Assembly (NCBI GenBank): GCA_001189075.1
Contig: LFCN01000006.1
Span: forward strand, 321,746-385,745
Source: Parcubacteria bacterium C7867-004
GTDB lineage: Bacteria > Patescibacteriota > Minisyncoccia > Phycocordibacterales > Phycocordibacteraceae
Length of the DNA stretch: 64,000 bases
Reading direction: 5' to 3'
Made by a program: the position numbers and the translations under genes. The notes beneath the pieces were generated by a model that was given only the letters and a program-made list of their open reading frames with translations, was not told the origin of the DNA and did not search any database. Every line of letters starts with the position of its first letter. Within the stretch, counting starts at the first letter, position 1. Positions 22,712-55,079 of the stretch are shown here, one piece after another.

Positions 22712-23875
22712 TTACGCTACGAGCTTGAGGCGGTCTATAAGACCATCGAGCGGCAGGAAGATCTCGGTGTGGGTGGAGCGCTCCCGGAGGATCACATTGC
22801 GCTCGAGTGCCTCTTTTCGTCCCATGATGAGGAGGTATTGCGGGTCGGCAAGGTCCGCCAGGCGCATCTGCTCTGAAAGCGAAGCGACGCCCATGGCTTG
22901 GGTAAGCGGGATGCGGGCACGGCGGAGGTCGTCAGCCATCTTCATGCTCTCGCGCTTGGCTTCGTCACCGATATGCACGAAGACGAAGCGAGGCGCTCCG
23001 CGCTCTTTCACGGGCGTGACCTGTTCGCGTCCGTCGGAGGCTATGCGGATAACTGCGCCTACCGAATGCACGCCGCTCTTGAAGAACGGGCGCGTAAGAT
23101 CATTGTAGCGGGAGCCCCAGGCGGTCCCGTCCGGCGTCTCAACCGTGAAGCAAGTCTCGGTCCAAGAGGCACCCCGGGAAAGCAGGCTCGGGACGAGCTC
23201 GTACGGCGTGTCGGTGGTCTCAAGATACTCGAGTACCGCCTCGAAGTGCTTGCGGCTCGCTTCCGAGAGGTGATCGGTCGGGCTCGGCATGCCGTCCGCC
23301 TCTTCCTTCATGCAGGCGAGGAGCTCCGCGGCTTCGAATACTTCGCCCTGGCGCGCACGCTCCACGCAATCGGTCGGAAGGATCGGTCCGTGTTTGCGGA
23401 AGAATTGGGTAAGCTCCCGCGCAAAGCGGCTGCGCGTCTCGCGATCGCCCATACTGTTCAATTTCAGATGCGGCTCGGACTTGGAAAGGTCGCCGAGCAG
23501 GGAACGCACGGTGCGGATGAGAACCGCGTCAGCAATAGCGTGCTCCACGCCGAGCACATGGAACTGTATGAGAATCTGCTTCGGTGCGGGACGCCCTGCA
23601 GCGATGTTCGTGTGCCACAGAAAGAGCGGCTGAGTATTAGATGGCGTGATGCCGGCATCACGCACCTGTTTCAGGAGCGAGACAACCTCGCGCGCACTCG
23701 GATCAAGAGCTTCGAGATTGAGTCCGTCGGGATAGGGACCGCGAGCGCCTTTCCCGCGGTTAGCGAGCGCGAGTTGCGAGAGAGGGGTGAATCCATAATA
23801 GTTTCCGACTGCGTGTGCGCGCTTGAGGATGTCGCTCGGTTCACGAACGGCGCGATGTGCAGTGGCGGTACTCAT
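22712..23875 (-). CDS. histidyl-tRNA synthetase-like class II aaRS (divergent)
   Basis: N-terminal GNYYGFTPL, QFHVLGVE (compare HisRS QFHQLGCE), LKLNSMGDRETR (compare LELNSIGSLEAR), and a C-terminal anticodon-binding-like domain PQYLLIMGRKEALERNVILRE. Motif-2 arginines and the RPEGT segment appear substituted. Confidence 0.5.
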   Translation of the reverse strand: MSTATAHRAVREPSDILKRAHAVGNYYGFTPLSQLALANRGKGARGPYPDGLNLEALDPSAREVVSLLKQVRDAGITPSNTQPLFLWHTNIAAGRPAPKQILIQFHVLGVEHAIADAVLIRTVRSLLGDLSKSEPHLKLNSMGDRETRSRFARELTQFFRKHGPILPTDCVERARQGEVFEAAELLACMKEEADGMPSPTDHLSEASRKHFEAVLEYLETTDTPYELVPSLLSRGASWTETCFTVETPDGTAWGSRYNDLTRPFFKSGVHSVGAVIRIASDGREQVTPVKERGAPRFVFVHIGDEAKRESMKMADDLRRARIPLTQAMGVASLSEQMRLADLADPQYLLIMGRKEALERNVILRERSTHTEIFLPLDGLIDRLKLVA

Positions 23876-24423
23876 TGGATTTCGGTAACGGCTCCAGGAA
23901 GGACACCCGTCTTTCCGGCAGGAAGCAGGCGGATGTACGCGCGGCCCATGAGATCTTCCTTCGGAAGGACGCCCCAGGTGCGCGAGTCCGAGCTGCGCGG
24001 ACGATTGTCGCCCATAACGAAGTACTGATCGGTGCCGAGGCTGCGATCGAGCGTGTAGGTAGCGTCTTCTGCTACGACATAGGATTCATCGAGCTCGATC
24101 TCCATGCCATCGGTCTTGGTGATGCTCGTCTTACCTTTGTTTATGTGAACGGTCTCACCGGGAAGGCCGATGATGCGCTTTATATAGAAGACTTTCGGGT
24201 TTATCGGATAGCGGAACACGACGACATCGCCGCGTTTCGGATTCTCGAGACGGTAGGTGAGCTGGTCGACGATGAGATAGTCGCCGCTCTCGAACGTCGG
24301 GAACATGCTGTCTCCCTCAACGACGAATGGCTGCGCAACGAACACGCGTAGTGGCGCGACGATGATAAGGGCAAGGATTGCGAGAAAGAAAATCTCTTTG
24401 AACGCACCCCCGGGAACTTTCAT
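23872..24423 (-). CDS. lepB: signal peptidase I
   Basis: N-terminal TM helix, catalytic Ser box EGDSMFPTF, Lys box YIKRIIGLPGETV, C-terminal GDNRPRSSDSR. Confidence 0.85.
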   Translation of the reverse strand: MKVPGGAFKEIFFLAILALIIVAPLRVFVAQPFVVEGDSMFPTFESGDYLIVDQLTYRLENPKRGDVVVFRYPINPKVFYIKRIIGLPGETVHINKGKTSITKTDGMEIELDESYVVAEDATYTLDRSLGTDQYFVMGDNRPRSSDSRTWGVLPKEDLMGRAYIRLLPAGKTGVLPGAVTEIQ

Positions 24424-33366: not shown

Positions 33367-34674
33367 ATGAAGAACCTCAAGCCATTCCAGATCATCATCA
33401 TGGCCGTATTCGGCCTGATAGCTTTGCTCGGACTCTTCCTGTTCGCGAACTTCAAGGGATTCAGTAGCGGAGTGGCGCCGGTGGGTGAGGTTACCATCTG
33501 GGGAACGCTCCCTGCGGTGCCGATACAGGACGTCATCGGCTCACTCAAACAGACACATCCCGAATACGGGCAGGTGAGCTATGTCGAGATAAAGAAAGAG
33601 ACGTTCTCGGTAGATCTCGCGGAAGCTATTGCGTCTGGAAGCGGCCCTGATCTCCTTATCGTCTCGCAGGAGGAGCTGCTCGCGACCCAGAACAAGCTCT
33701 CGCTCATACCGTCCTCGAAGATCTCGGAACGGACCTTCCGCGACACCTATCTTCCTATCAATGAGCTGTATCTCGTGAATGGCGGCACGCTCGGCATCCC
33801 GTTCGTTGTTGATCCGCTCATGCTCTACTACAACCGCCCCGTCCTCTCGTCAGCAGGAGTCGCGACGCCGCCTTCGACCTGGGAAGCGGTAACGGGGCTT
33901 GCGTCAGCAGTGAACCGCGAGAGCCAGGGACGTACCCTTACGAGCAGTCTTATCGCGCTCGGTACCTACGCGAACATCGAGAACGCGCGCGGCATCATCT
34001 CGCTCTTGTTCCTCCAGTCGGGGTACACCATAACCGAGAAGAATAACGAGGGCATCAAGACTAATCTCACCAATCTTGGCACGGTGTCGACTTTCGGCAC
34101 GACGCCCGCTGAAAGCGCGCTCAACTTCTATACCGAGTTCGCGAATCCGGGGAAAACGGTCTACTCCTGGAACGCGTCGCTTCCGAATAGTCGCCAGGCA
34201 TTCCTCGCGGGCGATCTCGCGCTCTACCTCGGCTACGCTTCCGAGCGAGCGATTCTTTCAGAAGCGAACCCGAACCTGGACTTCGATATGGCAGCCGTAC
34301 CGGTGCAGGGAACTGCAACACTCCGCACCACGTATGGGCGCGCCTACGCGTTTACCATCCCGAAGTCGACGCCGAACTCGACCGGTGCCTACCGCATCGC
34401 GCTTGCCCTTACCGGTAAGGACTCCCTTCCGATGCTCGCGCATGCACTCGGCATGGCACCGGCACAGCGTCAGCTTCTTGCGCCGACCAAGGGCGACCTC
34501 TATGAGCCGGTGTACTTCCCGCAGGCGCTCGTAGCGAAAGGATGGCTGTCCCCATCGACTGCTACCACCGACCGCATCTTTGCTACGATGGTGGGGAACG
34601 TGATCAGCGGGAAGGAGAATGTGCGGGAGGCGCTTTATACGGCTGATCAGTCCCTTAATGCCGCATTAAAATAA
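33367..34674 (+). CDS. extracellular solute-binding protein (ABC transporter substrate-binding, family 1-like)
   Basis: N-terminal signal anchor followed by a ~400-aa periplasmic-binding-protein-like domain. Start chosen at MKNLKPFQIII. Confidence 0.5.
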   Translation: MKNLKPFQIIIMAVFGLIALLGLFLFANFKGFSSGVAPVGEVTIWGTLPAVPIQDVIGSLKQTHPEYGQVSYVEIKKETFSVDLAEAIASGSGPDLLIVSQEELLATQNKLSLIPSSKISERTFRDTYLPINELYLVNGGTLGIPFVVDPLMLYYNRPVLSSAGVATPPSTWEAVTGLASAVNRESQGRTLTSSLIALGTYANIENARGIISLLFLQSGYTITEKNNEGIKTNLTNLGTVSTFGTTPAESALNFYTEFANPGKTVYSWNASLPNSRQAFLAGDLALYLGYASERAILSEANPNLDFDMAAVPVQGTATLRTTYGRAYAFTIPKSTPNSTGAYRIALALTGKDSLPMLAHALGMAPAQRQLLAPTKGDLYEPVYFPQALVAKGWLSPSTATTDRIFATMVGNVISGKENVREALYTADQSLNAALK

Positions 34675-34679
34675 TTTAT

Positions 34680-35096
34680 ATGAGACGAATCCTCTCCTCA
34701 CTGCTACTCGCCTTTCTGTGCTTTGTGAGTATTGTTCCTGCAATTGCGCTCGCGCAGACGGGCGGACAGCCATCGGGAACGGCTCCTACTGGCGGCCAGC
34801 CGTCGGGAACCCCGCCTCCATCGAATGCGGGCTCTGGTCTTGTTAATCCACTCAACAATATCGACTCCCTGCCGGATTTCCTGAACGCGATACTTAATGC
34901 GGTTGTAGACATCGGCAGTATCATCCTGGTCCTCGCGCTGGTCTATACCGGCTTCTTGTTCGTTGCCGCACAGGGAAATCAGGAGAAACTGAGCAGTGCC
35001 CGGAACGCGCTTATATGGACCGTGGTCGGCGGACTCGTTTTGCTCGGCGCTAAGGCGATCGGTCTTGTCATCGAAGCAACCGTTAAGACCTTATGA
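34680..35096 (+). CDS. VirB2/TrbC-like pilin-family small membrane protein (paralog 1)
   Basis: Signal peptide, low-complexity GGQPSGT repeat, then two hydrophobic helices separated by a short polar loop (..LVLALVYTGFLFVAAQGNQEKLSSARNALIWTVVGGLVLL..). Confidence 0.5.
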   Translation: MRRILSSLLLAFLCFVSIVPAIALAQTGGQPSGTAPTGGQPSGTPPPSNAGSGLVNPLNNIDSLPDFLNAILNAVVDIGSIILVLALVYTGFLFVAAQGNQEKLSSARNALIWTVVGGLVLLGAKAIGLVIEATVKTL

Positions 35097-35404
35097 TCAA
35101 GTTCTCTCGGATAGCGTTGCTTGCGGGAACGTTAGTTCTCCTTCCTGAAGTAGCAAGTGCAGCGGAGACTTTTAAGAGTCTTACTGCGAAGATAGTTACC
35201 CTTGTGAACACTGCGGTTGTTCCTCTTATCTACGCCATAGCCATAGTTATCTTCCTCATAGGCATGCTCAGGTTCTTCTTTCTCGGTGGGGAGGAAGGCC
35301 GTGAGAAAGGGAAACAGTTCATGCTCTGGGGCATCATCGCGCTTGTGGTGATGTTCTCGGTCTGGGGCATAGTCAGGCTTCTGCTCACTGCTCTTCCGGG
35401 GTAG
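35093..35404 (+). CDS. VirB2/TrbC-like pilin-family small membrane protein (paralog 2)
   Basis: Signal peptide plus PLIYAIAIVIFLIGMLRFFFLGGEEGREKGKQFMLWGIIALVVMFSVWG. ATGA start/stop overlap with paralog 1. Confidence 0.55.
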   Translation: MIKFSRIALLAGTLVLLPEVASAAETFKSLTAKIVTLVNTAVVPLIYAIAIVIFLIGMLRFFFLGGEEGREKGKQFMLWGIIALVVMFSVWGIVRLLLTALPG

Positions 35405-35453
35405 GTGCATAACATTCCGTCAAACTCATTCCGCCTGCTACCTTTATACATAT

Positions 35454-35867
35454 ATGAAAACATCACGATTTCTGGTTTCCGCGAGTGCGCTCGCTCTCGC
35501 GCTTAGTGCTCCGATTATAGCGTTCGCGCAGAGCGGCAAGATAGGAGGCTCGAGGCTCGATACGTTCCTTCCGAGTATCGTCGATTTCATAAACTCGATA
35601 CTCATACCGTTCATCTTCGCAATCGCTTTCATCGTATTCATCTGGGGTATCTTCCAGTATTTCATCGCGGGTGGCGCGAATGAGGAACAGCGCGACAAGG
35701 GGAAGCAGCTGGCGGTCTGGGGCATCATCGCATTCTTCGTAATGATCTCCGTCTGGGGCATGATCAACTTGTTGGTCGATACCTTCGGTTTCGGTGGACA
35801 GAATGCGCCGAAGCTTCCGACTTTCAAGCCAGCCGCGATGCTCTCAGTGCCGCTTGATGCTGCGTAG
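35454..35867 (+). CDS. VirB2/TrbC-like pilin-family small membrane protein (paralog 3)
   Basis: Signal peptide plus IPFIFAIAFIVFIWGIFQYFIAGGANEEQRDKGKQLAVWGIIAFFVMISVWG. Confidence 0.55.
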   Translation: MKTSRFLVSASALALALSAPIIAFAQSGKIGGSRLDTFLPSIVDFINSILIPFIFAIAFIVFIWGIFQYFIAGGANEEQRDKGKQLAVWGIIAFFVMISVWGMINLLVDTFGFGGQNAPKLPTFKPAAMLSVPLDAA

Positions 35868-35961
35868 CGTTTTCCCCACGCGTCCTCAGGCTCTATTGAC
35901 GTTCACTCATTCCAGTCTATCCTTAGCTTTAGTAGCGAATCGTTACCACTAACCACCCATC

Positions 35962-36327
35962 ATGAAGAAACTCGGATATCTCGTTCTCGCGTTCGTTCTC
36001 TCGTTCCCGGTCTCGGCATTCGCCCAGATTAATGCGACCAATGCTCAGACGTTCAGCAACGGCGCAATCAACCTCATCAACAACGTATTTATCCCGCTCG
36101 TCTTCGCAATCGCTTTCATCGTATTCATCTGGGGAGTATTCCAGTACTTCATCGCTGGCGGACACGACGAGGAGAAGCGCGAGACCGGAAAGAGCCTCAT
36201 GCTCTGGGGCATCATTGGATTCTTCATTATGGTCTCCGTCTGGGGCCTCGTGAACATCCTCCGCGGAACCATTCAGGTTAACAACAGCGTTCCGGACTAC
36301 GCTCCGAACCTCCCAACAAACCAGTAG
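35962..36327 (+). CDS. VirB2/TrbC-like pilin-family small membrane protein (paralog 4)
   Basis: Signal peptide plus IPLVFAIAFIVFIWGVFQYFIAGGHDEEKRETGKSLMLWGIIGFFIMVSVWG. Shares a 34-nt identical stretch with paralog 3. Confidence 0.55.
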   Translation: MKKLGYLVLAFVLSFPVSAFAQINATNAQTFSNGAINLINNVFIPLVFAIAFIVFIWGVFQYFIAGGHDEEKRETGKSLMLWGIIGFFIMVSVWGLVNILRGTIQVNNSVPDYAPNLPTNQ

Positions 36328-36393
36328 GAACTATCCGAGTTTCTCCACTCACGAAGGCCGCGCGCAAGCGCGGCCTTCTGCTATCATTACCGC

Positions 36394-36636
36394 ATGGAAT
36401 ATAAGGAGTTTGTAACTAAAGTGCAGGACGCGATTCTCACACCCATCATCACGCTCCTCGCGCTCGCGGCATTCGTGCTCTTCATCTGGGGAGTCGTGCA
36501 GATGCTCGCGTCCGCAGAAGACCAGGAGAAGCGCCGTACGGGTCAGCAGCACATGATCTGGGGCATCATTGGACTGGTTATCATCTTCGGTACCAACGCG
36601 ATTATCTCGCTCATACGAGCGACGGTGGGTGGGTAG
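36394..36636 (+). CDS. VirB2/TrbC-like pilin-family small membrane protein (paralog 5, no signal peptide)
   Basis: 80 aa. LLALAAFVLFIWGVVQMLASAEDQEKRRTGQQHMIWGIIGLVIIFG. Confidence 0.5.
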   Translation: MEYKEFVTKVQDAILTPIITLLALAAFVLFIWGVVQMLASAEDQEKRRTGQQHMIWGIIGLVIIFGTNAIISLIRATVGG

Positions 36637-36695
36637 TAGATAAAGAAAAGAGCCGTTCCCAAAGGAAACGGCTCCACACACAAAGGACAGGGTTC

Positions 36696-37226
36696 TTACC
36701 CGAGACTCGCGTACTTGACCGGGACTTCTTCGTCCGGCTGGCGCAGGCGATACTCGTACTTCATCCGGATCGGAGTGCCCGTACTGGACTGCACCGCGAC
36801 GCCGAAGTTGTACTTGCAGATCTGGGGATCCCAGGGGATCTTCTTGCCCCCTCCGATCTCGCAGAACCTCCGGTAGGTGATCTCGGTGTCACCCTTGCAG
36901 ATGTTGCCGGGACCGACCTCGCAGAAGACCAAATCGTAGCCCTGCTCGGTCGGGACGTAGGCTGACGTGGTATCTCCAGCCGGAGCCAGGATATCTTGCC
37001 AGCCCCGCGCGAGAGGCGCCTGAGGCCGAATGGCCGCCACGCTCGGGAGCGAATAGCGAGCCTTCTGCAGCTCGGCCATGGTGGCTTTCGACTTCTGCTT
37101 CGAGTCGTGCTCGACGAACATCATCTTGAACTTCGGGATGCCGAAGGCCAGGGTGAGGAGGATGCCGATGGTAACGAGAAGCCTGCCGCGTTTCTTGGTC
37201 GGGGTCGATGTGGTAGTGCTCATCAC
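36696..37226 (-). CDS. membrane-anchored Cys-rich secreted protein, function unknown
   Basis: 176 aa. N-terminal TM anchor, then a domain with several Cys (FCEVGPGNICKGD..FCEIGGGKKIPWDPQICKYNFG). Confidence 0.45.
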   Translation of the reverse strand: MMSTTTSTPTKKRGRLLVTIGILLTLAFGIPKFKMMFVEHDSKQKSKATMAELQKARYSLPSVAAIRPQAPLARGWQDILAPAGDTTSAYVPTEQGYDLVFCEVGPGNICKGDTEITYRRFCEIGGGKKIPWDPQICKYNFGVAVQSSTGTPIRMKYEYRLRQPDEEVPVKYASLG

Positions 37227-38125
37227 GAACCTCCTTTCTTAGCGCCGAATACTTCGACGATGCCTTGCTTGATCGTATCGGCGATGCCTTGCGCACCCTC
37301 GAGACGGATAATATGACGGGTTGCGGTTGCTTTGCCGCGCTCCGTCTGCATGGTCTCCAGGGCCAGCTCAGGCTTCACGCCTTTTGCGCCCAAGTCGTCA
37401 ATCCATGCGATCACCCCCTTGCGTTCCACGCCTTCTGAGACGAGTTGCGCTTCCTCGATCCGCTTGTGAGCGGCCGCCGCGGGAATTTCCGGCGGCGGAA
37501 GGATTTCAGGGATCTCCACCTTGATGACCTCATACCCCAGAAGGGCAGAGGAATCTCCCATCGCGGTCTTGATATCGGCCGCGAGGGTGCTCCACGTTGC
37601 CGGCCTTTCAAGCACCTCAGATTCCTTGCCGGCAATGCCGTCGCGGAACCGGCTTTCGCCGATCTTCATGAGGGACGTGAGTGGGGCGTCAGCGCTGAGA
37701 TTGGTGTGCGGATCAATGACCTTCAGCGTGGCGAAGAAGGAGCCCGTCATCTCGACGTTGTCCGTGGACAACGCTTTGACGTTCTCCGGTGCAGTGGTCT
37801 TGATGCGAACATCCACCGGGTCGAAGCTCATCAGGAAGGGAATCAGCCAGTGATGACCTTCTGACAGCACGAAGCCGGCAATCCGCTCGCCCAGGAATTT
37901 GGGAACTCCGACGAAGCCAACCGCGATTGCGGAGTGCTGTCTGCCGGATTGGAAGATTGCGCCGCCGGCGAGTAGAGTCGGCAGGATGCCGAGGAACCAC
38001 CAGTCCGAGGACAAGCCGGTAATCATCAGCACGATGATCGTGATGACGACACCAGTAATGAGCCCCAGAAAGGCAGATATAATCGCGCCGAAGGCGTTTG
38101 TCGTCAGAGTGTTAACCTTGCGCAT
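37223..38125 (-). CDS. SPFH/band-7 domain membrane protein (stomatin/HflC-like)
   Basis: Two N-terminal TM helices followed by a ~200-aa domain with SPFH-like composition and a C-terminal coiled-coil-like tail. Assignment is by architecture. Confidence 0.45.
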   Translation of the reverse strand: MRKVNTLTTNAFGAIISAFLGLITGVVITIIVLMITGLSSDWWFLGILPTLLAGGAIFQSGRQHSAIAVGFVGVPKFLGERIAGFVLSEGHHWLIPFLMSFDPVDVRIKTTAPENVKALSTDNVEMTGSFFATLKVIDPHTNLSADAPLTSLMKIGESRFRDGIAGKESEVLERPATWSTLAADIKTAMGDSSALLGYEVIKVEIPEILPPPEIPAAAAHKRIEEAQLVSEGVERKGVIAWIDDLGAKGVKPELALETMQTERGKATATRHIIRLEGAQGIADTIKQGIVEVFGAKKGGS

Positions 38126-47241: not shown

Positions 47242-48888
47242 ATGCGTTCACTAAACATTCATCCGAAGCTCCTTCCGACTCTCATCGTCCTCCTTGCCGT
47301 CTTTGTGGGCGTAGGAATCTACTTCTACACCAACCCCGAGACCTTCAAGGAACGCCTGGCCGATTCGCTCTCGACGGATACCGGACTTCCGTTTGATATC
47401 GATCTTGCGAAAGATTCTCTCACGGACGAGGAGAGTCAGGCGATGTGGGAAGCGCGCAACAAGCTCGCCGATTCGCTCGAGGGATATCCAATAGAAGCGA
47501 ATTTCCTTCCGGATCCGGTCCTTGTCCCACACCCTCAGGGCCAGGACTATCTCACACTCTACAAGATAGGAACGATAACGAACGGAGAACTGAAAGGCGA
47601 AACGTTGTATCTCGAATCGGAAGACGGTATGGGTGGTGCGTACTATAGCCGCGCAATTGTCAGGGACGGGAATGTCATCACGCTCCGGGAAAACCAATTC
47701 ACGTTCCCCTATGAGTACGACTTCCCGGAAATCATAAGCATACCCGGCACGCAGCATACGCTGAAGAAAGGAAGCACTGGCTGGTTCCTGTTCGATGAGA
47801 AGACGAAGTTACAATCGGTGTTTACGGATCCTCAGGCGCAGACGCTCTATCGTGCGGACTATGGCCAATGCCTCATCGCCGAGATGCCGGATCATATTGG
47901 CGTCTCCTACGACCTCGATATTCCGTTCGTGACAGAAGAGAGCGGAAAACTATCAGTGCGGCTTCCGAGCGGCTCCTTCTTCGAGGATGAATATGACTTC
48001 TTCAACTTCGGTTGTGGTGCCGGCTGCAGGCTCCTCCGATACGTCGATCCGGTCGAACTTGATCTTCCTGCGCGTCTTGCGCAGGTTGCTACCGATCCGA
48101 AGACGAACGAAGCGGTGTATGGCATCGCATCCAGCGAGGACCGTCGTCTCAAGGAATTGTATGCGGACGAGAACACGCTCGCGTATTTCCGTGAGGATGA
48201 TAACTGGGAGCATACGCCGACCAATAAATACACCTATCAGGAATTCCTCTCGCATAAGCCGCTCCTGTATTGGAAAGACCCGTGGGGAAAATGGATTGAA
48301 TTCCAAAATAAGCGATTCGCGACTGCGGCGGAGAAGTGTAAGCCTGTTATCTATCTGTATCCGCGTACCCCGGGAACGTTCCATGTGGAGGTAGCGCCGA
48401 ACGGTGGATTCACGAAGACCATTCCGGAATACGGCGACGGATGGGATGTGTTCGCACAACCCTCGGGATTGATCACTGATATCGCGAGCGGTCTTACGTA
48501 TCCGTACCTGTACTGGTCTGGCATCGGCATCAATTATCCTGAGATAACGGAAGGCTGGATCGTCCCCAAGGAGGGTGTCGATTCCTTCCTCTCGGAGAAG
48601 CTGTATGCGCTCGGTCTTGAAGGGAAGGAGATCGCGGATTTCAAGGAATACTGGGTACCGCGCCTCTCTGAGAAGCCGTACTACAAGATCTCGTTCATGG
48701 CCCCTCGTACCTTCGAGCAGCTCGCGCCTCTGAGCGTGGCGCCGATAGCGCCCGATACGAAGATTCGCGTGATGATGACCGCGCAGGCTACCGACGGCAC
48801 TGAATCCTTGCCAGTTCAGCATTTGCCGCAGCGCCCAGTACGCAACGGCTTCGTACTCGTCGAGTGGGGCGGCGCGGTGCTGTACTAG
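47242..48888 (+). CDS. membrane-anchored extracytoplasmic protein, function unknown
   Basis: 548 aa. N-terminal TM anchor (LLPTLIVLLAVFVGVGIYFY). Large Tyr/Trp/Asp-rich domain with no recognised motif. Confidence 0.5.
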   Translation: MRSLNIHPKLLPTLIVLLAVFVGVGIYFYTNPETFKERLADSLSTDTGLPFDIDLAKDSLTDEESQAMWEARNKLADSLEGYPIEANFLPDPVLVPHPQGQDYLTLYKIGTITNGELKGETLYLESEDGMGGAYYSRAIVRDGNVITLRENQFTFPYEYDFPEIISIPGTQHTLKKGSTGWFLFDEKTKLQSVFTDPQAQTLYRADYGQCLIAEMPDHIGVSYDLDIPFVTEESGKLSVRLPSGSFFEDEYDFFNFGCGAGCRLLRYVDPVELDLPARLAQVATDPKTNEAVYGIASSEDRRLKELYADENTLAYFREDDNWEHTPTNKYTYQEFLSHKPLLYWKDPWGKWIEFQNKRFATAAEKCKPVIYLYPRTPGTFHVEVAPNGGFTKTIPEYGDGWDVFAQPSGLITDIASGLTYPYLYWSGIGINYPEITEGWIVPKEGVDSFLSEKLYALGLEGKEIADFKEYWVPRLSEKPYYKISFMAPRTFEQLAPLSVAPIAPDTKIRVMMTAQATDGTESLPVQHLPQRPVRNGFVLVEWGGAVLY

Positions 48889-48889
48889 C

Positions 48890-50650
48890 ATGCGCAAAGC
48901 GCTGTTGCTCGTCGCTATAGTCGGCTTATGCGTCGCAGCGGTGCTTGCGGTACACCTTTTCAAAAAGGATTTGCAGACCGTCTACGAGGGGACGCATTAT
49001 GCTTCCCACATGCAGGAGCACTTCTATGGGGATATGGCTTCCGCAGATACGGTATTCACGCCTGGTATCAAGGGCGCCATCGTTTCGCACCATCTCCTCG
49101 TTGCGGATCATATAGCGCAAACGTTCGCGTCGATGACCAACGATCAGGTTAAGACGGTGGTTATCATCGGACCGGATCATTTCTCCCGTGCCTCGGGAAA
49201 AGTATCAGTATCGCGGTATCCGTACGAGACACCATGGGGCAGGGTTGAGCCTGATACGGAAGTGATCGATGGCCTCATTAGCGCGAGGCTCGCCGAGGAG
49301 AACGAATATGTCTTCGAGATAGAGCACTCGATCGGCAGTCTCGCTCCGTATGTCAGGTATCATTTCCCGAACGCGAGACTGGTACCGATCGTTGTCGATC
49401 GCTCTACGTCACCTGAGGACGCAGTAAAGCTGGGAACATATCTAGCAGCTAATCTTGATGAGGGTGCGCTCGTTATCGCAAGCGTTGATTTCTCCCATCA
49501 CCTCGGGACCACGGCCGCCGATTTCCATGACGCGAAGAGTGTTGAGACCGTTCGTGCGTTCGACTTCGCATCGCTCGCGCGGCTTGAGGTGGATAGTCCA
49601 GCGTCCCTATACGCAGTCCTTACGTATCTTGAAGCGAAAGGCGCACAACGCCCCGTTATGTTCGATACGACGAACTCTGCGCGTTTCCTCGGCATTCCGG
49701 ATTCTGATGATGTAACGTCGTACCTCTTCGCTACGTTCGCTGAGGGACCAAAGGAGTCGACGGGCGCGGTTAGCATGTTTGCAGCAGGGGACCTGATGCT
49801 CGGAAGGGATGTCGCGAAGAAGATGGCGCAAGGAACCGACCTGTTCGAACGGTTCCGGGGAGTCGAAGGGAATTTCCTTCGCGGATTCGATATGTTCATT
49901 GCGAATCTCGAAGGGCCGATTACCAATTCGACTGAGTGCCAAAAGAAAGAACTCTCATTCTCCTTCAATCCTTCGGTTACTCCATACCTGAAAAAGAACG
50001 GGCTTACGCATGTAACGCTCGCTAATAATCATTCGAATGATTGTTTCGCAGCCGGTATCTCTGATACCAAGCAGAACCTCACGGAACAGGGCATTCGGTA
50101 TGTGGGTGGCGGAACGCTCGCTGAAAGTACCCGGACGGAAAAGGTCGCCGGGAAGCGAATCGCCATACTCGGCATTGATCGGACCGTCCAGCCGGTTGCT
50201 CCTGGGCTCGTGTATGCACATCTGCGCTCACTTGAAGAGAGTCATGACTATACGATCGTGGAGGTGCACTGGGGGCTCGAATACGAGCTCACCGAGTCGA
50301 CGGATCAGCGTACGCTCGCGCACGGCATGATAGACAGCGGGGCGGACGTCATCATCGGCCACCATCCGCATGTCGTGCAGCCGGTAGAGTCGTATGCAGG
50401 GAAGCCGATATTCTATTCCCTGGGAAATTTCGTATTTGATCAGTTCGGGAAAGAGACCAATACCGGCATGGCGGTCGGTCTGGTGCTCGCTGATGCGGCG
50501 ATAAGCACGTACCTGTTCCCGTACACGATAAACAGTGCGCATCAGCCGGACTTGATGGAGTACAAGGAAGCACAGGCGTATTGCAGCACTCAGGATATTC
50601 GTATCGAACCGTTCGGAAAGGATGCGTGCGCACTGCGCCTCGCTCGTTAA
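48890..50650 (+). CDS. fusion protein: Memo1/AmmeMemoRadiSam-B-like domain + CapA (PGA_cap) metallophosphatase-like domain
   Basis: N-terminal TM anchor. Residues about 60-270 contain GAIVSHHLLVADH..VVIIGPDHF (Memo-family His cluster). Residues about 290-586 contain MFAAGDLMLGRDVA..THVTLANNHSNDC..IIGHHPHV, typical of the CapA/PGA_cap family. Confidence 0.55.
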   Translation: MRKALLLVAIVGLCVAAVLAVHLFKKDLQTVYEGTHYASHMQEHFYGDMASADTVFTPGIKGAIVSHHLLVADHIAQTFASMTNDQVKTVVIIGPDHFSRASGKVSVSRYPYETPWGRVEPDTEVIDGLISARLAEENEYVFEIEHSIGSLAPYVRYHFPNARLVPIVVDRSTSPEDAVKLGTYLAANLDEGALVIASVDFSHHLGTTAADFHDAKSVETVRAFDFASLARLEVDSPASLYAVLTYLEAKGAQRPVMFDTTNSARFLGIPDSDDVTSYLFATFAEGPKESTGAVSMFAAGDLMLGRDVAKKMAQGTDLFERFRGVEGNFLRGFDMFIANLEGPITNSTECQKKELSFSFNPSVTPYLKKNGLTHVTLANNHSNDCFAAGISDTKQNLTEQGIRYVGGGTLAESTRTEKVAGKRIAILGIDRTVQPVAPGLVYAHLRSLEESHDYTIVEVHWGLEYELTESTDQRTLAHGMIDSGADVIIGHHPHVVQPVESYAGKPIFYSLGNFVFDQFGKETNTGMAVGLVLADAAISTYLFPYTINSAHQPDLMEYKEAQAYCSTQDIRIEPFGKDACALRLAR

Positions 50651-50702: not shown

Positions 50703-50944
50703 CCGGCGCGCTTACGAACATGTTGGCCGAGGCCGACTCGTTCGCAAGCACCATAGGATACTACAGGAGAGTGATTTTCTCGTCAAGGGATTTTAGGGAG
50801 GAAATGAGGAGGGTGTGGATAACGTGTCGTTCATACTGGGACACTTCAGTTTTATGATTCGTGTGTTATAGTGTAGTGGGGACCGACGCTAACGCATCGG
50901 TAGCCTAATTGTTGAAACTCGCGACCTCAAAGGGGTTTTATTGG

Positions 50945-51682
50945 ATGATACGAACAAGATTGGTGGGCTGCTTCGGCGCGGCCATGGTTCTCGCGCTTGC
51001 GGCGAATGCCCGGGCGGCGACGAACCTCATCGTGAACGGGGGCTTCGAAGCTCCGCTCGCGGGCAACGGCGCCTACTATCAGGCGTTCGGCGGCCAGGAC
51101 ATAGGTGGCTGGACGGTTACTGGGCGGGACATCCTCCTGCTCGACCGCAACTACACGGAGACCGGCCTGGTCTTCAATTCAGCTGCGGGCGATCAGGCGG
51201 CTGACATTACCGGCGCCGGCAACACCAGCGAAGAGGACGGGCTCGAGCAGACGGTGCTCGTCGACCCCGGTCAGCTGTATAGGCTGTCCTTCGACGTCGG
51301 GAACGCGGCGCCGTTCGGCGTGAATTCGTGGGCCTACACGCTCCCGAGCACGGTCCGACTCACCTTCGATGATGGCGATCCTGGGCCGGTGGTGTTCCTC
51401 ACCACCGGCCCGCTCGAGTTCACCAATGCCATCGACAACCCGTCGGGCAGTCCGGGGATCAACTTCCAGAGGTTCTCGGTCGACTATCTCGGCACGAGCA
51501 CCGGTCAGGTGAAGATCCGGTTCTTCAACGGCGTGGGCAACGACAACTACGTCGGCCTCGACAACGTCGTGTTCGAGAAGGTCGCTGCGGCGGTGCCGGA
51601 ACCCTCGTCGTGGGCGCTGATGATCATCGGCTTCGGCGGAATGGGCGCCATGATTCGGCGTCGCCGACTGCAAGCGGCCTAG
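50945..51682 (+). CDS. PEP-CTERM sorting-domain protein
   Basis: Signal peptide (LVGCFGAAMVLALAANARA). N-terminal NGGFE..GW beta-sandwich-like domain. C-terminal VPEPSSWALMIIGFGGMGAMIRRRR is a textbook PEP-CTERM motif (VPEP, hydrophobic helix, basic tail). Lies in an approximately 66% GC island. Confidence 0.6.
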   Translation: MIRTRLVGCFGAAMVLALAANARAATNLIVNGGFEAPLAGNGAYYQAFGGQDIGGWTVTGRDILLLDRNYTETGLVFNSAAGDQAADITGAGNTSEEDGLEQTVLVDPGQLYRLSFDVGNAAPFGVNSWAYTLPSTVRLTFDDGDPGPVVFLTTGPLEFTNAIDNPSGSPGINFQRFSVDYLGTSTGQVKIRFFNGVGNDNYVGLDNVVFEKVAAAVPEPSSWALMIIGFGGMGAMIRRRRLQAA

Positions 51683-52532: not shown

Positions 52533-53564
52533 ATGTATCGGCTTTGGGTCACCGCAGTCTTTGCGTGCGTAATCGCATTGTCCGTACCTGCATACGTATC
52601 TGCCGCTGATCTTCCGCTTCTTACACCCGGTTGGCACATCGTTCCGGATGCGCATGACCTTGATTCGAGTTGCCCGGTAGGTGCACCGCTCGGGTTTGGC
52701 GGCGTACTCCAACTCATCCAGAACCTGATGAATGCCGGTATCTCTATCGGCATCGTCATATCCATCCTGGTTATCGTCTTCTCTGGTTTGCTGTGGATGC
52801 TCACGCCGTTCAATCCCGAGAATCATTCGCAGGCGAAGAAAGTCCTTACGAATGCGGTCATAGGCCTGCTCATTATCCTTTCGGCGTGGCTCATCGTGGA
52901 TTTCGTGATGAAGGTCTTGTATTCGGGTACCGGAGCCGATTCGGGAAAGTTCGGACCATGGAATAAGATACTCGTCGGCGGGAACAAATGCGTAACGGCA
53001 AGCACTGACCTTAAGCCGCTTTTCAGCGGAGACCTATTTACGATCCCAAGCACTGGACCGGCTAACGTTCCTGTGGACGCGACTCAGATAGCAACCGCGC
53101 GAGTAGGTACGGGAGGATGTTCGCCCGAATATATCACCACCATGGCAGGAAAGTCAGGCTCGCCCATAACCCCCTCGAACGCCGCGACGCTTTCTTGCAT
53201 CGCGGTCCATGAGAGTACGTGCGGTACGAGGCTCCTCAATTACAACTGGGGAAAGGGATCAAGTGCGGCAGGACTTCTGCAGGTAACCATCGACAGCCAT
53301 TCTTCCTTCTTTGAGAACGCCACCTGCAGGGCTGCCGCTGGGGTAAGTCCGACGACGGTCCTTAACTGCACGGCAGGATTCAATAAGGGAAATGCGGTTC
53401 CCGGAAGCGCTATAGCAGAGCGCTGCACAAGAGCCGCGAAGGATCCGGCATGCAATGTCGCGCTGGCGCTGCAGGTTCTCAAGTCGGAGGGGTATGGAGC
53501 ATGGACCCATGACCCGAAAAGCAATAAGCAGGAGGCGTGCATCGCCCGCTTCGGGAATGGGTAG
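52533..53564 (+). CDS. VirB2/TrbC-like pilin-type N-terminal module fused to a lytic transglycosylase (SLT-like) domain
   Basis: Signal peptide. Double-TM pilin-like segment GFGGVLQLIQNLMNAGISIGIVISILVIVFSGLLWMLTPFNPENHSQAKKVLTNAVIGLLIILSAWLIVDFVMK. C-terminal domain has the SLT hallmarks AVHESTCG (catalytic E-S) and SSAAGLLQV (GLMQ-like). Confidence 0.55.
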   Translation: MYRLWVTAVFACVIALSVPAYVSAADLPLLTPGWHIVPDAHDLDSSCPVGAPLGFGGVLQLIQNLMNAGISIGIVISILVIVFSGLLWMLTPFNPENHSQAKKVLTNAVIGLLIILSAWLIVDFVMKVLYSGTGADSGKFGPWNKILVGGNKCVTASTDLKPLFSGDLFTIPSTGPANVPVDATQIATARVGTGGCSPEYITTMAGKSGSPITPSNAATLSCIAVHESTCGTRLLNYNWGKGSSAAGLLQVTIDSHSSFFENATCRAAAGVSPTTVLNCTAGFNKGNAVPGSAIAERCTRAAKDPACNVALALQVLKSEGYGAWTHDPKSNKQEACIARFGNG

Positions 53565-53583
53565 CCATGTATACTTATCTGCA

Positions 53584-54144
53584 ATGAAACGCTATCTCCT
53601 CATCGGTCTCGGGGTCCTCATCGTGATCTCTGTAGCGGTTACTGTTGCGTTCATAGTCCTATCGAAGAAAGAGACGCCTCCGCCTCCCCAAGCCCCTGCT
53701 TTGTTCCCTAGCGCTGGCGGAGTCAGCCAGATACGTCCTTCTGACATGGTCCTCTTGGTAGCATCAAAGGCTGGGGGAGATATCGCCGTCCGTGACTTCA
53801 TCAGCGACGATACAACCTTCAACGACCCGTCGAATCCGGATGTCTATTTCATCGCGAGGAGCAGCATCGAATGCTATCCGGACTGCGGTCCGGGAGCGAG
53901 CCAGAGCGCCTTCAACATTTCGTATTTCAAACCGACGAGATCATTCACGATAGCTATCCTCGAGGAACCGATCGGACAATCGAGAATCGATGCGGAGAAC
54001 TATCTTATGAACGTGCTTGGCATTACATCAACTCAGATGTGCGAACTGGATCAGTACACCAGCACTGACACGCAGACGAATCCGGCATTCGCTGGCATTC
54101 CTCTCGGATTTAGCTTCTGTCCAGGCGCGATTAAACTACCCTAA
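53584..54144 (+). CDS. membrane-anchored extracytoplasmic protein, function unknown
   Basis: N-terminal TM anchor (LLIGLGVLIVISVAVTVAFIVL), a Pro-rich linker, and a ~150-aa domain with four Cys. Sandwiched between the two pilin-hydrolase fusion genes. Confidence 0.45.
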   Translation: MKRYLLIGLGVLIVISVAVTVAFIVLSKKETPPPPQAPALFPSAGGVSQIRPSDMVLLVASKAGGDIAVRDFISDDTTFNDPSNPDVYFIARSSIECYPDCGPGASQSAFNISYFKPTRSFTIAILEEPIGQSRIDAENYLMNVLGITSTQMCELDQYTSTDTQTNPAFAGIPLGFSFCPGAIKLP

Positions 54145-54146
54145 GC

Positions 54147-55079
54147 ATGCGTATCCTCTCTCTATTCGTTCCGGTGCTGAGCGCGATAGCATTCGTGCCA
54201 GCGACGGCGTTTGCGGCGAATGCTACGTTCTTCGGGCCGCTCGTTCCTGAGGCGTGCAGGTCTTGTCCGTGCGGGTTCGCGGGTGTCCTGCAGATCATCC
54301 AGAACTTCATGAACCTGGGAATCTCGCTCTCGATCATCATTGCGACGATCATCATCGCGGCAGGCGGGTTCATGTACATCCTGTCCTCAACCAATCCGGA
54401 GAGCCGCAGCAAGGCGAACAAGATGCTTATGAATGCGGTCATCGGTCTGCTTATCGTCCTTTCCGCGTGGCTCATCGTGGACTTCGTCATGAAGAGTCTG
54501 TATGGCGGGCAGTTCGGTCCTTGGAACTCTATCCTTCGAGGCGGAGACGAGTGCGTAGTCTCACGGCCGACCCAAAGGCTTTTCAGCGGGGATCTCTTCG
54601 TGCTGCCCGGCGGGATTACGGGCGGCGGCGTGGAGCAAGGTACGGGAAACGGAACCGGTCCGAACTGCCCGGTTCCAGCTGAATCAACTATGGTAGCGTT
54701 CCCGGCCGAGGCGGTTGCCGGCGGGTCCGGAAAAGCGACCCCTGACACCGTCGCAAATTTCATGGCGATGCGCGAGGCTGCAAAGAAGGATGGAATCGTT
54801 CTGAAAGTAAGCAGTGCCTATCGATCGGATGCAGCTCAAGTGTCGCTCTGGAATAGTCTCGGCAGAGACACGAGCAAGGTCGCGAAGCCCTGCTCGCTGG
54901 GCGGCGGCGGCTCCAATCACAACTCCGGCGCAGCGGTAGATATAGAGGTCGGATGCGGCAATCCGAGCAGCAATTGCAATACGGCCACCTATAAGTGGCT
55001 TAAGGCCAACGGTGGCAAGTGGAATTTCCGAAACGCTCTTCCTACCGATCCTCCGCATTGGTCGCCGAGCGGTACCTAG
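54147..55079 (+). CDS. VirB2/TrbC-like pilin-type N-terminal module fused to an M15 (VanY/D-Ala-D-Ala carboxypeptidase-like) peptidase domain
   Basis: Signal peptide. Pilin-like segment GFAGVLQIIQNFMNLGISLSIIIATIIIAAGGFMYILSSTNPESRSKANKMLMNAVIGLLIVLSAWLIVDFVMK. C-terminal LAS-metallopeptidase hallmarks SAYRS, SNHNSGAAVDI (H..D) and DPPHWS. Confidence 0.55.
   Translation: MRILSLFVPVLSAIAFVPATAFAANATFFGPLVPEACRSCPCGFAGVLQIIQNFMNLGISLSIIIATIIIAAGGFMYILSSTNPESRSKANKMLMNAVIGLLIVLSAWLIVDFVMKSLYGGQFGPWNSILRGGDECVVSRPTQRLFSGDLFVLPGGITGGGVEQGTGNGTGPNCPVPAESTMVAFPAEAVAGGSGKATPDTVANFMAMREAAKKDGIVLKVSSAYRSDAAQVSLWNSLGRDTSKVAKPCSLGGGGSNHNSGAAVDIEVGCGNPSSNCNTATYKWLKANGGKWNFRNALPTDPPHWSPSGT

What the first reader, a model, noticed from the sequence alone, without database searches (positions are those of the whole stretch)
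34680..36636. Tandem array of five paralogous VirB2/TrbC-like double-TM small proteins
Five consecutive same-strand genes of 80-138 aa share one blueprint. Each has a signal peptide (absent in the last), hydrophobic helix 1 ending in FIWG..QYFIAGG, a short charged loop (EEQRDKGKQ / DEEKRETGKS / EEGREKGKQ), and helix 2 beginning LWGIIAFFVMISVWG. This topology is that of type IV secretion pilins (VirB2/TrbC), yet no VirB4/VirD4-like ATPase lies nearby. Paralog 1 carries an extra GGQPSGT low-complexity repeat. The array is followed on the opposite strand by a Cys-rich secreted protein and an SPFH protein. Such diversified pilin-like arrays in reduced genomes may form an undescribed surface or secretion appendage, or a bacteriocin-like repertoire.
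Basis: partly seen in the sequence, partly recalled or inferred. Interest (0 to 1): 0.7.

Follow-up and report, generated by a model that had tools for sequence, protein, structure and literature searches.

The report
Known T4SS pilin-like gene array
Five neighbouring small membrane-protein genes in this ultra-small (Patescibacteria) bacterium belong to a catalogued family of type IV secretion pilin-like proteins, and arrays of this kind were already described in 2023 and 2025, so the finding is real but largely ordinary.

Summary
Five same-strand ORFs (34680-36636) are paralogues. Four have signal peptides, and all have a two-helix hairpin with a short charged loop. All five score above Pfam's threshold for PF18895 (T4SS_pilin). 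They stay below threshold for canonical TrbC/VirB2.

The window comes from Parcubacteria bacterium C7867-004, class Paceibacteria. NCBI names homologues "pilin". Published work already reports 441 VirB2-like arrays of 2-11 genes in Patescibacteria. It also reports an essential pilin series in a cultivated Saccharibacterium. That study's genome table lists this assembly as VirB4-positive. "Undescribed appendage" is therefore not supported, and nothing supports a bacteriocin reading.

Points I did not find in the papers I read:
- The five genes are positional orthologues kept in about 70 of 80 related species, always behind gyrA, a methyltransferase and an orphan solute-binding protein.
- No VirB4 lies within about 84 kb here, or within 10 kb on either side in relatives.
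- The fourth gene has its own conserved promoter and terminator, which suggests a major subunit.
- The fifth is probably translated from a leaderless mRNA.
- A second locus fuses the pilin domain to cell-wall hydrolase domains.

Verdict: a new member of a known kind, of modest interest.

The parts
33367..34674 (+). Orphan membrane-anchored solute-binding protein (SBP_bac_1, distantly MalE-like). It ends 5 nt before P1. It is probably co-transcribed with P1-P2(-P3), and this is inferred.
   Evidence: Pfam SBP_bac_1 at E 1.7e-13. Weak MalE match. N-terminal TM segment. The public gene call is 435 aa. It sits upstream of the array in about 70 of 80 related loci. No ABC permease was seen nearby.
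34680..35096 (+). P1: pilin-like protein with a signal peptide (…IALA|Q), two TGGQPSGT repeats and a divergent hairpin. It is the most TrbC-like of the five.
   Evidence: PF18895 33.1 bits (GA 26.7... cut-off 26.6); PF04956 27.1 bits (cut-off 27.9). Sequence.
35093..35404 (+). P2: pilin-like protein with a signal peptide. It overlaps P1 by 4 nt (ATGA).
   Evidence: PF18895 38.3 bits. The overlap is conserved in relatives, median -4 nt.
35454..35867 (+). P3: pilin-like protein with a signal peptide (…IAFA|Q) and a Pro-rich C-terminal tail.
   Evidence: PF18895 40.1 bits. 51% identical to P4.
35896..35923 (+). Sigma-70-type promoter TTGACG-N16/17-TATCCT upstream of P4.
   Evidence: Promoter scan. 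Both hexamers are 90% or more conserved in the alignment of 41 related loci.
35962..36327 (+). P4: the best-conserved pilin-like protein, with a signal peptide (…SAFA|Q), a hairpin and a Pro-rich tail. It is the candidate major subunit, and this is inferred.
   Evidence: PF18895 49.1 bits and NF045849 40.2 bits (cut-off 40). Mean 64% identity to orthologues. AlphaFold model pLDDT 79.8 with helices 28-65 and 70-103.
36353..36378 (+). GC-rich 11-bp stem-loop directly after the P4 stop, a terminator or attenuator.
   Evidence: RNAfold -28.7 kcal/mol over the 70 nt after the stop. An equivalent hairpin is present in 43 of 43 related loci with z below -2 and median MFE -31.
36379..36387 (+). Extended -10 element TGCTATCAT, 6 nt before the P5 ATG. 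This implies a leaderless P5 mRNA.
   Evidence: TGnTAnnnT is found at the same place in 35 of 41 related loci, mostly 6-8 nt before the ATG.
36394..36636 (+). P5: an 80-aa pilin-like hairpin without a signal peptide.
36649..36675 (.). Hairpin terminator between P5 and the convergent gene. The T-run that made the call is on the - strand; use by the + strand array is inferred from the hairpins found after P5 in relatives.
   Evidence: Terminator scan, - strand hit. Hairpins follow P5 in 90% of related loci.
52533..53564 (+). Related gene outside the finding: signal peptide, pilin domain (aa 60-125) and a C-terminal lysozyme-like (weak SLT_3) domain.
   Evidence: PF18895 37 bits; PF18896 at E 0.006. 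Some homologues carry PF18895 plus PF18896. The public annotation starts 65 codons later (278 aa), but homologues cover 97-100% of the long form.
54147..55079 (+). Related gene outside the finding: signal peptide, pilin domain (aa 49-114) and a VanY-type D-Ala-D-Ala carboxypeptidase domain.
   Evidence: PF18895 34.6 bits and PF02557 53.5 bits. NCBIfam matches. The locus is syntenic in relatives.

Best explanation
The five genes encode pilin-like subunits of the PF18895 family for the Patescibacteria-type type IV secretion system, which is related to the systems of Gram-positive bacteria.

Shown here:
- Family membership, the hairpin architecture and the signal peptides.
- The array is an ancient, positionally conserved five-gene set in a Paceibacteria clade.
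- No T4SS ATPase is linked to it.

Taken from the literature:
- This genome has a VirB4 gene elsewhere.
- PF18895 pilins sit in T4SS clusters in other Patescibacteria.
- A pilin series is essential for epibiotic growth in a cultivated Saccharibacterium.

Inferred mechanism:
- P1-P4 are exported by Sec and cut after AxA by signal peptidase I. One such peptidase is encoded at 23872-24423.
- P5 inserts without a signal peptide, probably through YidC.
- Each protein sits in the membrane as a helix-loop-helix hairpin. The charged loop faces the cytoplasm and both ends face outward.
- The unlinked VirB4 machine extracts the subunits and assembles them into a filament or conduit that reaches the host cell.
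- P4 is the major subunit. It is the best conserved and has its own conserved promoter and terminator.
- P1-P3 and P5 are non-redundant minor or specialised subunits.
- The low-complexity Pro/Gly-rich ends, which vary in length between species, are exposed on the surface.
Confidence: 0.6

Rival explanations
1. The proteins are membrane-resident two-helix modules and not subunits of an extended pilus. They would form part of the translocation channel or an envelope scaffold, or act as anchors that hold extracellular segments at the membrane.
For: The same domain is the N-terminal membrane module of lysozyme-like and VanY fusions in this window. Single polypeptides with 2-8 concatenated hairpins exist. 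There is no linkage to virB4. The papers state that Gram-positive-type T4SSs generally lack pili.
Against: Family annotation and the best structural match both point to conjugative pilins. Four of the five have cleavable signal peptides with the VirB2-like AxA|Q site. In other Patescibacteria these genes lie inside T4SS clusters and are essential.
Confidence: 0.25
2. Together with the upstream orphan solute-binding protein, the five proteins form a solute- or glycan-capture device that does not depend on the T4SS.
For: The SBP gene ends 1-5 nt before P1 in the window and in two relatives. SBP followed by P1-P5 is conserved in about 70 species. No ABC permease was seen near the SBP.
Against: Adjacency is the only evidence. 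The hairpins have no similarity to ABC permeases. The family as a whole is associated with T4SS.
Confidence: 0.07
3. The array is a repertoire of bacteriocin, immunity or holin-like small membrane peptides.
For: Only the small size, the two hydrophobic helices and the tandem diversification.
Against: No bacteriocin, immunity or holin family appears among the Pfam or NCBIfam hits. The array lies in a stable housekeeping neighbourhood in 80 species with positional orthologues. That pattern is unlike the mobile, fast-turnover loci typical of bacteriocins. No lysis or export genes are nearby.
Confidence: 0.03

Closest known systems
VirB2-like pilin arrays of Patescibacteria (Quinonero-Coronel et al. 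2025, PMC12102498; pilin series of Ca. Southlakia epibionticum, Wang et al. 2023, PMC10633639)
   Same: The Pfam family is the same (PF18895). The tandem same-strand arrangement matches. Intra-array identity is low: 18-51% here against a published mean of 25% and maximum of 54%. The host is a Patescibacteria genome that carries VirB4.
   Different: This array is not near virB4. In Southlakia the pilins lie inside the T4SS cluster. The paper reports arrays as most abundant in Microgenomatia and Saccharimonadia, and this one is in Paceibacteria. Here the five genes are stable positional orthologues across many species behind an orphan SBP. That argues for division of labour, whereas the 2025 paper proposes variation that helps adaptation to different hosts.
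TrbC/VirB2 conjugative pilins of diderm T4SSs (Pfam PF04956; A. tumefaciens VirB2)
   Same: Signal peptide, two hydrophobic helices, short loop and small size. Both have a conserved P-x-x-A-x-A|Q cleavage context.
   Different: Sequence similarity is below the family threshold and is not detected by hhalign against rhizobial VirB2. The host is a monoderm-type cell with an MPF-FATA-like VirB4, according to the paper. There are five paralogues and not one major pilin.
Archaeal conjugation/Ced pilin (PDB 8dfu, Aeropyrum pernix)
Mbov_0395 family pilin-like conjugal transfer protein of Mycoplasma ICEs (NCBIfam NF045849)
   Same: P4 and P5 reach the model's cut-off (40.2 and 43.5 against 40). Both are hairpins of about 80 aa in wall-less or monoderm lineages.
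   Different: P1-P3 fall below the cut-off. This locus is chromosomal and is not on an integrative conjugative element.

Membership tests
Pfam PF18895 T4SS_pilin | HMM score at or above the gathering threshold (26.6 bits) | tested here: met
   P1 33.1, P2 38.3, P3 40.1, P4 49.1 and P5 39.5 bits. The same family is precomputed on the public gene calls.
Pfam PF18895 T4SS_pilin | Two hydrophobic helices joined by a short charged loop | tested here: met
   Alignment. Models show helices 28-65/70-103 in P4 and 3-39/44-78 in P5.
Pfam PF18895 T4SS_pilin | Encoded with or near a VirB4-type T4SS | tested here: not met
   There is no VirB4/VirD4 in the window, within 10 kb beyond its ends, or within 10 kb either side of the array in 80 related loci. 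At genome level a published table says VirB4 is present. I did not verify that independently.
Pfam PF04956 TrbC/VirB2 | HMM score at or above the gathering threshold (27.9 bits) | tested here: not met
   P1 scores 27.1 bits (E 4.8e-6), just below. P2-P5 score 15-17 bits.
Pfam PF04956 TrbC/VirB2 | Profile-level homology to experimentally studied VirB2 | tested here: inconclusive
   hhalign against 4 annotated rhizobial and Acetobacter VirB2 sequences gives probability 0.3-4.8%. That profile is very thin (Neff 1.8).
Conjugative pilin fold | Structural similarity to solved conjugative pilins | tested here: inconclusive
Conjugative pilin | Polymerises into an extracellular filament in a VirB4-dependent way | not testable with these tools
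   This needs cryo-ET, biochemistry or genetics.
NCBIfam NF045849 Mbov_0395 pilin-like conjugal transfer protein | Score at or above the cut-off of 40 | tested here: inconclusive
   P4 (40.2) and P5 (43.5) meet it. P1 (30.7), P2 (25.3) and P3 (36.0) do not.
Patescibacteria VirB2-like pilin array (PMC12102498) | Two or more pilin genes in tandem, with low identity between them, in a Patescibacteria genome | tested here: met
   Five tandem genes with 18-51% pairwise identity. The organism is Parcubacteria bacterium C7867-004.
Bacteriocin, immunity or holin families | Match to any such family model or a lysis/bacteriocin gene context | tested here: not met
   No such family appears among Pfam or NCBIfam hits up to E = 1. 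The neighbours are housekeeping genes.

The most novel reading that the evidence does not exclude
In this Paceibacteria clade the five-pilin set has been separated from the T4SS gene cluster and joined to an orphan, membrane-anchored sugar-type solute-binding protein. The five conserved, non-redundant subunits would then build a heteromeric surface filament or conduit that works with the SBP. Its role would be to bind host-surface glycans or to scavenge host-derived nutrients, a use of VirB2-like pilins that has not been described. Polypeptides with 2-8 fused hairpins in other organisms are consistent with the paralogues assembling with each other.
Probability: 0.1. Interest if true: 0.7.

Novelty: new member of a known kind. 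Interest (0 to 1): 0.3.

Why it matters
Patescibacteria make up a large share of uncultivated bacteria and live attached to host cells. Their unusual T4SS is one of the few machines shown to be essential for that lifestyle. The pilin-like subunits are its least understood part, because the related Gram-positive systems have no pilus.

This locus does not add a new kind of system. It does show three things about the pilin set in one large clade:
- It is a fixed, differentiated five-gene kit, whereas the 2025 paper explains such arrays as variation for adapting to hosts.
- It is kept apart from the ATPase genes.
- One member appears to be expressed separately as a probable major subunit.

These points can guide which protein to look for in cryo-ET or proteomics of Paceibacteria.

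Tried and rejected
- **Foldseek against the PDB.** Run with the full-length P4 model and the P5 model, it gave no hit at E of 0.001 or better and only generic helical hairpins. Fold search does not discriminate for an 80-residue hairpin.
- **Profile search of PDB sequences with the family alignment.** It returned nothing meaningful.
- **hhalign of the window/family alignments against four annotated VirB2 proteins from plasmids.** I fetched these after checking a recalled VirB2 sequence at 99% identity. No significant match resulted. I treat this as inconclusive because the VirB2 profile is thin.
- **tblastn of the P1 hairpin against 72,556 plasmids.** No match.
- **Two scans of viral contigs with the family alignments.** No relatives.
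- **Search for this genome's VirB4.** I checked all ORFs of 150 aa or more in the window by Pfam or motif. I also checked 10 kb beyond each window end (one look-up failed). I checked large Walker-A ORFs in 80 related loci, which were ATP synthase subunits, and the contexts of the fusion-protein homologues. None contained a T4SS ATPase. I had no way to fetch the rest of the genome, so genome-level presence rests on the published Table S1. The stored copy of Table S3 is cut before this assembly.
- **Holin, bacteriocin or immunity reading.** Rejected for lack of any family hit and because of the stable housekeeping synteny.

Full report
**Observation**

The five ORFs exist exactly as described: P1 34680-35096 (138 aa), P2 35093-35404 (103 aa), P3 35454-35867 (137 aa), P4 35962-36327 (121 aa) and P5 36394-36636 (80 aa), all on the + strand.
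- P1-P4 begin with hydrophobic signal peptides that end in AxA: IALA|Q, ASA|A, IAFA|Q and SAFA|Q. P5 has none, and no upstream start codon is available to it.
- All share helix 1, a short charged loop and helix 2.
- The resemblance is not chance. BLASTP between paralogues gives 4e-39 (P3/P4), about 1e-21 (P2 against P3 and P4), 4e-15 (P4/P5) and 9e-6 (P1/P5), with identities of 18-51%.
- P1 carries two TGGQPSGT copies after its signal peptide.
- The two convergent downstream genes are an SPFH/Band_7 protein and a 176-aa membrane-anchored protein with no family hit and four cysteines.

**Family identity**

All five exceed the Pfam gathering score of PF18895 'T4SS_pilin' (33-49 bits against 26.6).
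- The canonical TrbC/VirB2 model PF04956 is hit only below threshold. P1 scores 27.1 against 27.9 at E 4.8e-6, and the others score 15-17 bits.
- NCBIfam NF045849 (Mbov_0395 family pilin-like conjugal transfer protein, from Mycoplasma ICEs) is reached by P4 and P5.
- AlphaFold models show a signal peptide plus a 38/34-residue helical hairpin for P4 (pLDDT 79.8). P5 is a bare hairpin (pLDDT 91.4).
- Foldseek against the PDB finds nothing significant.
- hhalign against four annotated VirB2 proteins from plasmids is negative, but that profile is thin.
- One shared detail stands out. Both families conserve P-x-x-A-x-A|Q at the predicted cleavage site. From my own memory, the Gln that follows the cleavage site in VirB2 is the residue involved in T-pilin cyclisation. 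That is a lead and not a test.

**Source and prior knowledge**

P4 is identical to a hypothetical protein of Parcubacteria bacterium C7867-004.
- More than 1000 homologues were found. Every one of the 120 best that the tool listed carries PF18895, and NCBI names many of them 'pilin'.
- A profile of the five paralogues finds 19,319 cluster representatives at E of 0.001 or better in 1.84 billion proteins.
- Quinonero-Coronel et al. 2025 (PMC12102498) searched 3,035 Patescibacteria genomes with PF04956 and PF18895. They report 441 'VirB2 arrays' of 2-11 genes in 383 assemblies, with mean identity 25% and a maximum of 54%.
- Their Table S1 includes this very assembly (GCA_001189075.1, class Paceibacteria, 778,726 bp) with 'Presence of VirB4: Yes'.
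- Their Table S3 shows PF18895 genes next to VirB4 and TrsD in other genomes.
- Wang et al. 2023 (PMC10633639) found a series of predicted pilins inside the T4SS cluster of Ca. Southlakia epibionticum. These were essential for epibiotic growth.
- The kind of feature is therefore already described, and 'undescribed appendage' does not hold.

**Genomic context**

I checked every ORF of 150 aa or more in the window by Pfam or by motif inspection.
- They are housekeeping genes: GyrA, ClpB, TopA, IF-2, RelA, FtsZ/FtsA, alanine racemase, signal peptidase I and others. None is a VirB4-, VirD4- or VirB6-like protein.
- The 10 kb beyond each end of the window also lack them.
- I could not retrieve the rest of the genome, so VirB4 presence rests on the published table.

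**Conservation in relatives**

A scan of GTDB species representatives returned 80 related loci.
- Nearly all full-length loci show gyrA, a methyltransferase, SBP_bac_1 and then the pilin array.
- In 42 species the best-hit order is exactly P1-P2-P3-P4-P5. Others have six or seven genes, with extra P3- or P4-like copies.
- Orthologues average 54-64% identity to the window proteins. Paralogues within the window are 18-51% identical. The five lineages therefore predate the divergence of these species.
- Spacing is conserved as well: a 4-nt P1/P2 overlap, about 37 nt between P2 and P3, about 95 nt between P3 and P4, and about 60 nt between P4 and P5.
- ORF lengths vary widely in P1 (85-338 aa) and P3 (125-243 aa) and little in P4. 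I infer that this variation lies in the low-complexity ends, which are predicted to face outward, because the hairpin core aligns well across homologues.
- None of the 80 loci has a T4SS ATPase within 10 kb on either side. The only Walker-A candidates were ATP synthase subunits.

**Expression signals**

- A TTGACG-N16/17-TATCCT promoter lies upstream of P4 (35896-35923). Both hexamers are 90% or more conserved in 41 loci.
- A GC-rich 11-bp hairpin follows the P4 stop (36353-36378). An equivalent hairpin occurs in 43 of 43 loci, with z below -2 and median MFE -31 kcal/mol.
- Immediately after it lies an extended -10 element, TGCTATCAT (36379-36387), 6 nt before the P5 ATG. It is present in 35 of 41 loci, which implies a leaderless P5 transcript.
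- A further hairpin (36649-36675) closes the array against the convergent genes.
- The SBP gene ends 1-5 nt before P1.
- The 'array' is therefore likely at least three transcription units: SBP-P1-P2(-P3), P4, and P5. I infer that P4 is the major subunit, because it is the best conserved and is separately controlled.

**Other pilin-domain proteins**

Two larger proteins about 16 kb downstream carry the same domain after a signal peptide.
- One (52533-53564) is fused to a weak lysozyme-like SLT_3 domain.
- The other (54147-55079) is fused to a VanY D-Ala-D-Ala carboxypeptidase domain.
- This locus is also syntenic in relatives, beside miaA and parB.
- In the global search many top hits contain 2-8 pilin hairpins in one polypeptide. 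Inspection of three shows real concatenated hairpins joined by linkers of 30-40 residues.
- These fusions suggest that the paralogues act together. They also keep open the rival view that the domain is a membrane-resident module and not an extractable filament subunit.

**Conclusion**

The most likely explanation (confidence about 0.6) is that P1-P5 are differentiated pilin-like subunits used by an unlinked VirB4-type T4SS to build a host-contacting filament or conduit.
- The main rival (about 0.25) is a membrane-resident channel, scaffold or anchor role.
- A functional unit with the SBP (about 0.07) and a bacteriocin- or holin-like role (about 0.03) are unlikely.
- The finding is a genuine, correctly recognised member of a known and published kind.
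- The incremental points are the conserved five-orthologue structure, the separation from virB4, the SBP linkage and the transcription architecture.

Noticed in passing
window 52533-55079 (+): A second pilin-domain locus. It holds a signal peptide + PF18895 domain + lysozyme-like (weak SLT_3) protein, a 229-aa (publicly called 132-aa) TM protein, and a signal peptide + PF18895 + VanY carboxypeptidase protein. It is conserved beside miaA and parB in relatives. The pilin hairpin appears to serve as the membrane module of cell-wall hydrolases, which may be analogues of VirB1.
   Followed up: partly
window 33367-34674 (+): An orphan, membrane-anchored SBP_bac_1 (distantly MalE-like) gene ends 5 nt before P1. 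It precedes the pilin array in about 70 related species. No ABC permease or ATPase partner was seen in the neighbourhood.
   Followed up: partly
proteins P0241, P0243, P0280 and others: Many representatives of the family contain 2-8 pilin hairpins concatenated in one polypeptide. One example is 820 aa with 8 hairpins and no internal signal peptides. This is a 'poly-pilin' architecture that I did not see discussed in the papers I read.
   Followed up: partly
window 52533-53564: The public annotation of this gene (278 aa) starts 65 codons downstream of the first ATG. The long form has a good signal peptide (…YVSA|AD), and homologues cover 97-100% of it, so the deposited start is probably wrong.
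   Followed up: partly
PMC12102498 Table S3: In the part of the table I could read, all 13 VirB2 calls made only by PF18895 are flagged as near virB4. All 8 calls made by CONJScan pilin profiles are flagged as distant. It is unclear whether PF18895-only arrays far from virB4, like this one, were counted in the published totals.
   Followed up: no
window 50909-51682 (+): A secreted protein with an HpiC1-like/DUF642 domain and a C-terminal PEP-CTERM sorting motif. From memory, this motif is usually linked to exosortase systems, and no exosortase was seen in the window.
   Followed up: no
window 47242-48888 (+) and 48890-50650 (+): A 548-aa membrane-anchored protein with no family hit lies directly upstream of a Memo-like + PGA_cap (capsule synthesis) fusion protein.
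   Followed up: no
window 36696-38125 (-): The SPFH protein and the upstream 176-aa TM protein overlap by 4 nt. A pair of this type (an unannotated 211-219-aa gene followed by a 367-469-aa Band_7 gene) occupies the same position in relatives. The sequences diverge quickly, and most relatives are not detectable by BLASTP at 1e-5.
   Followed up: partly
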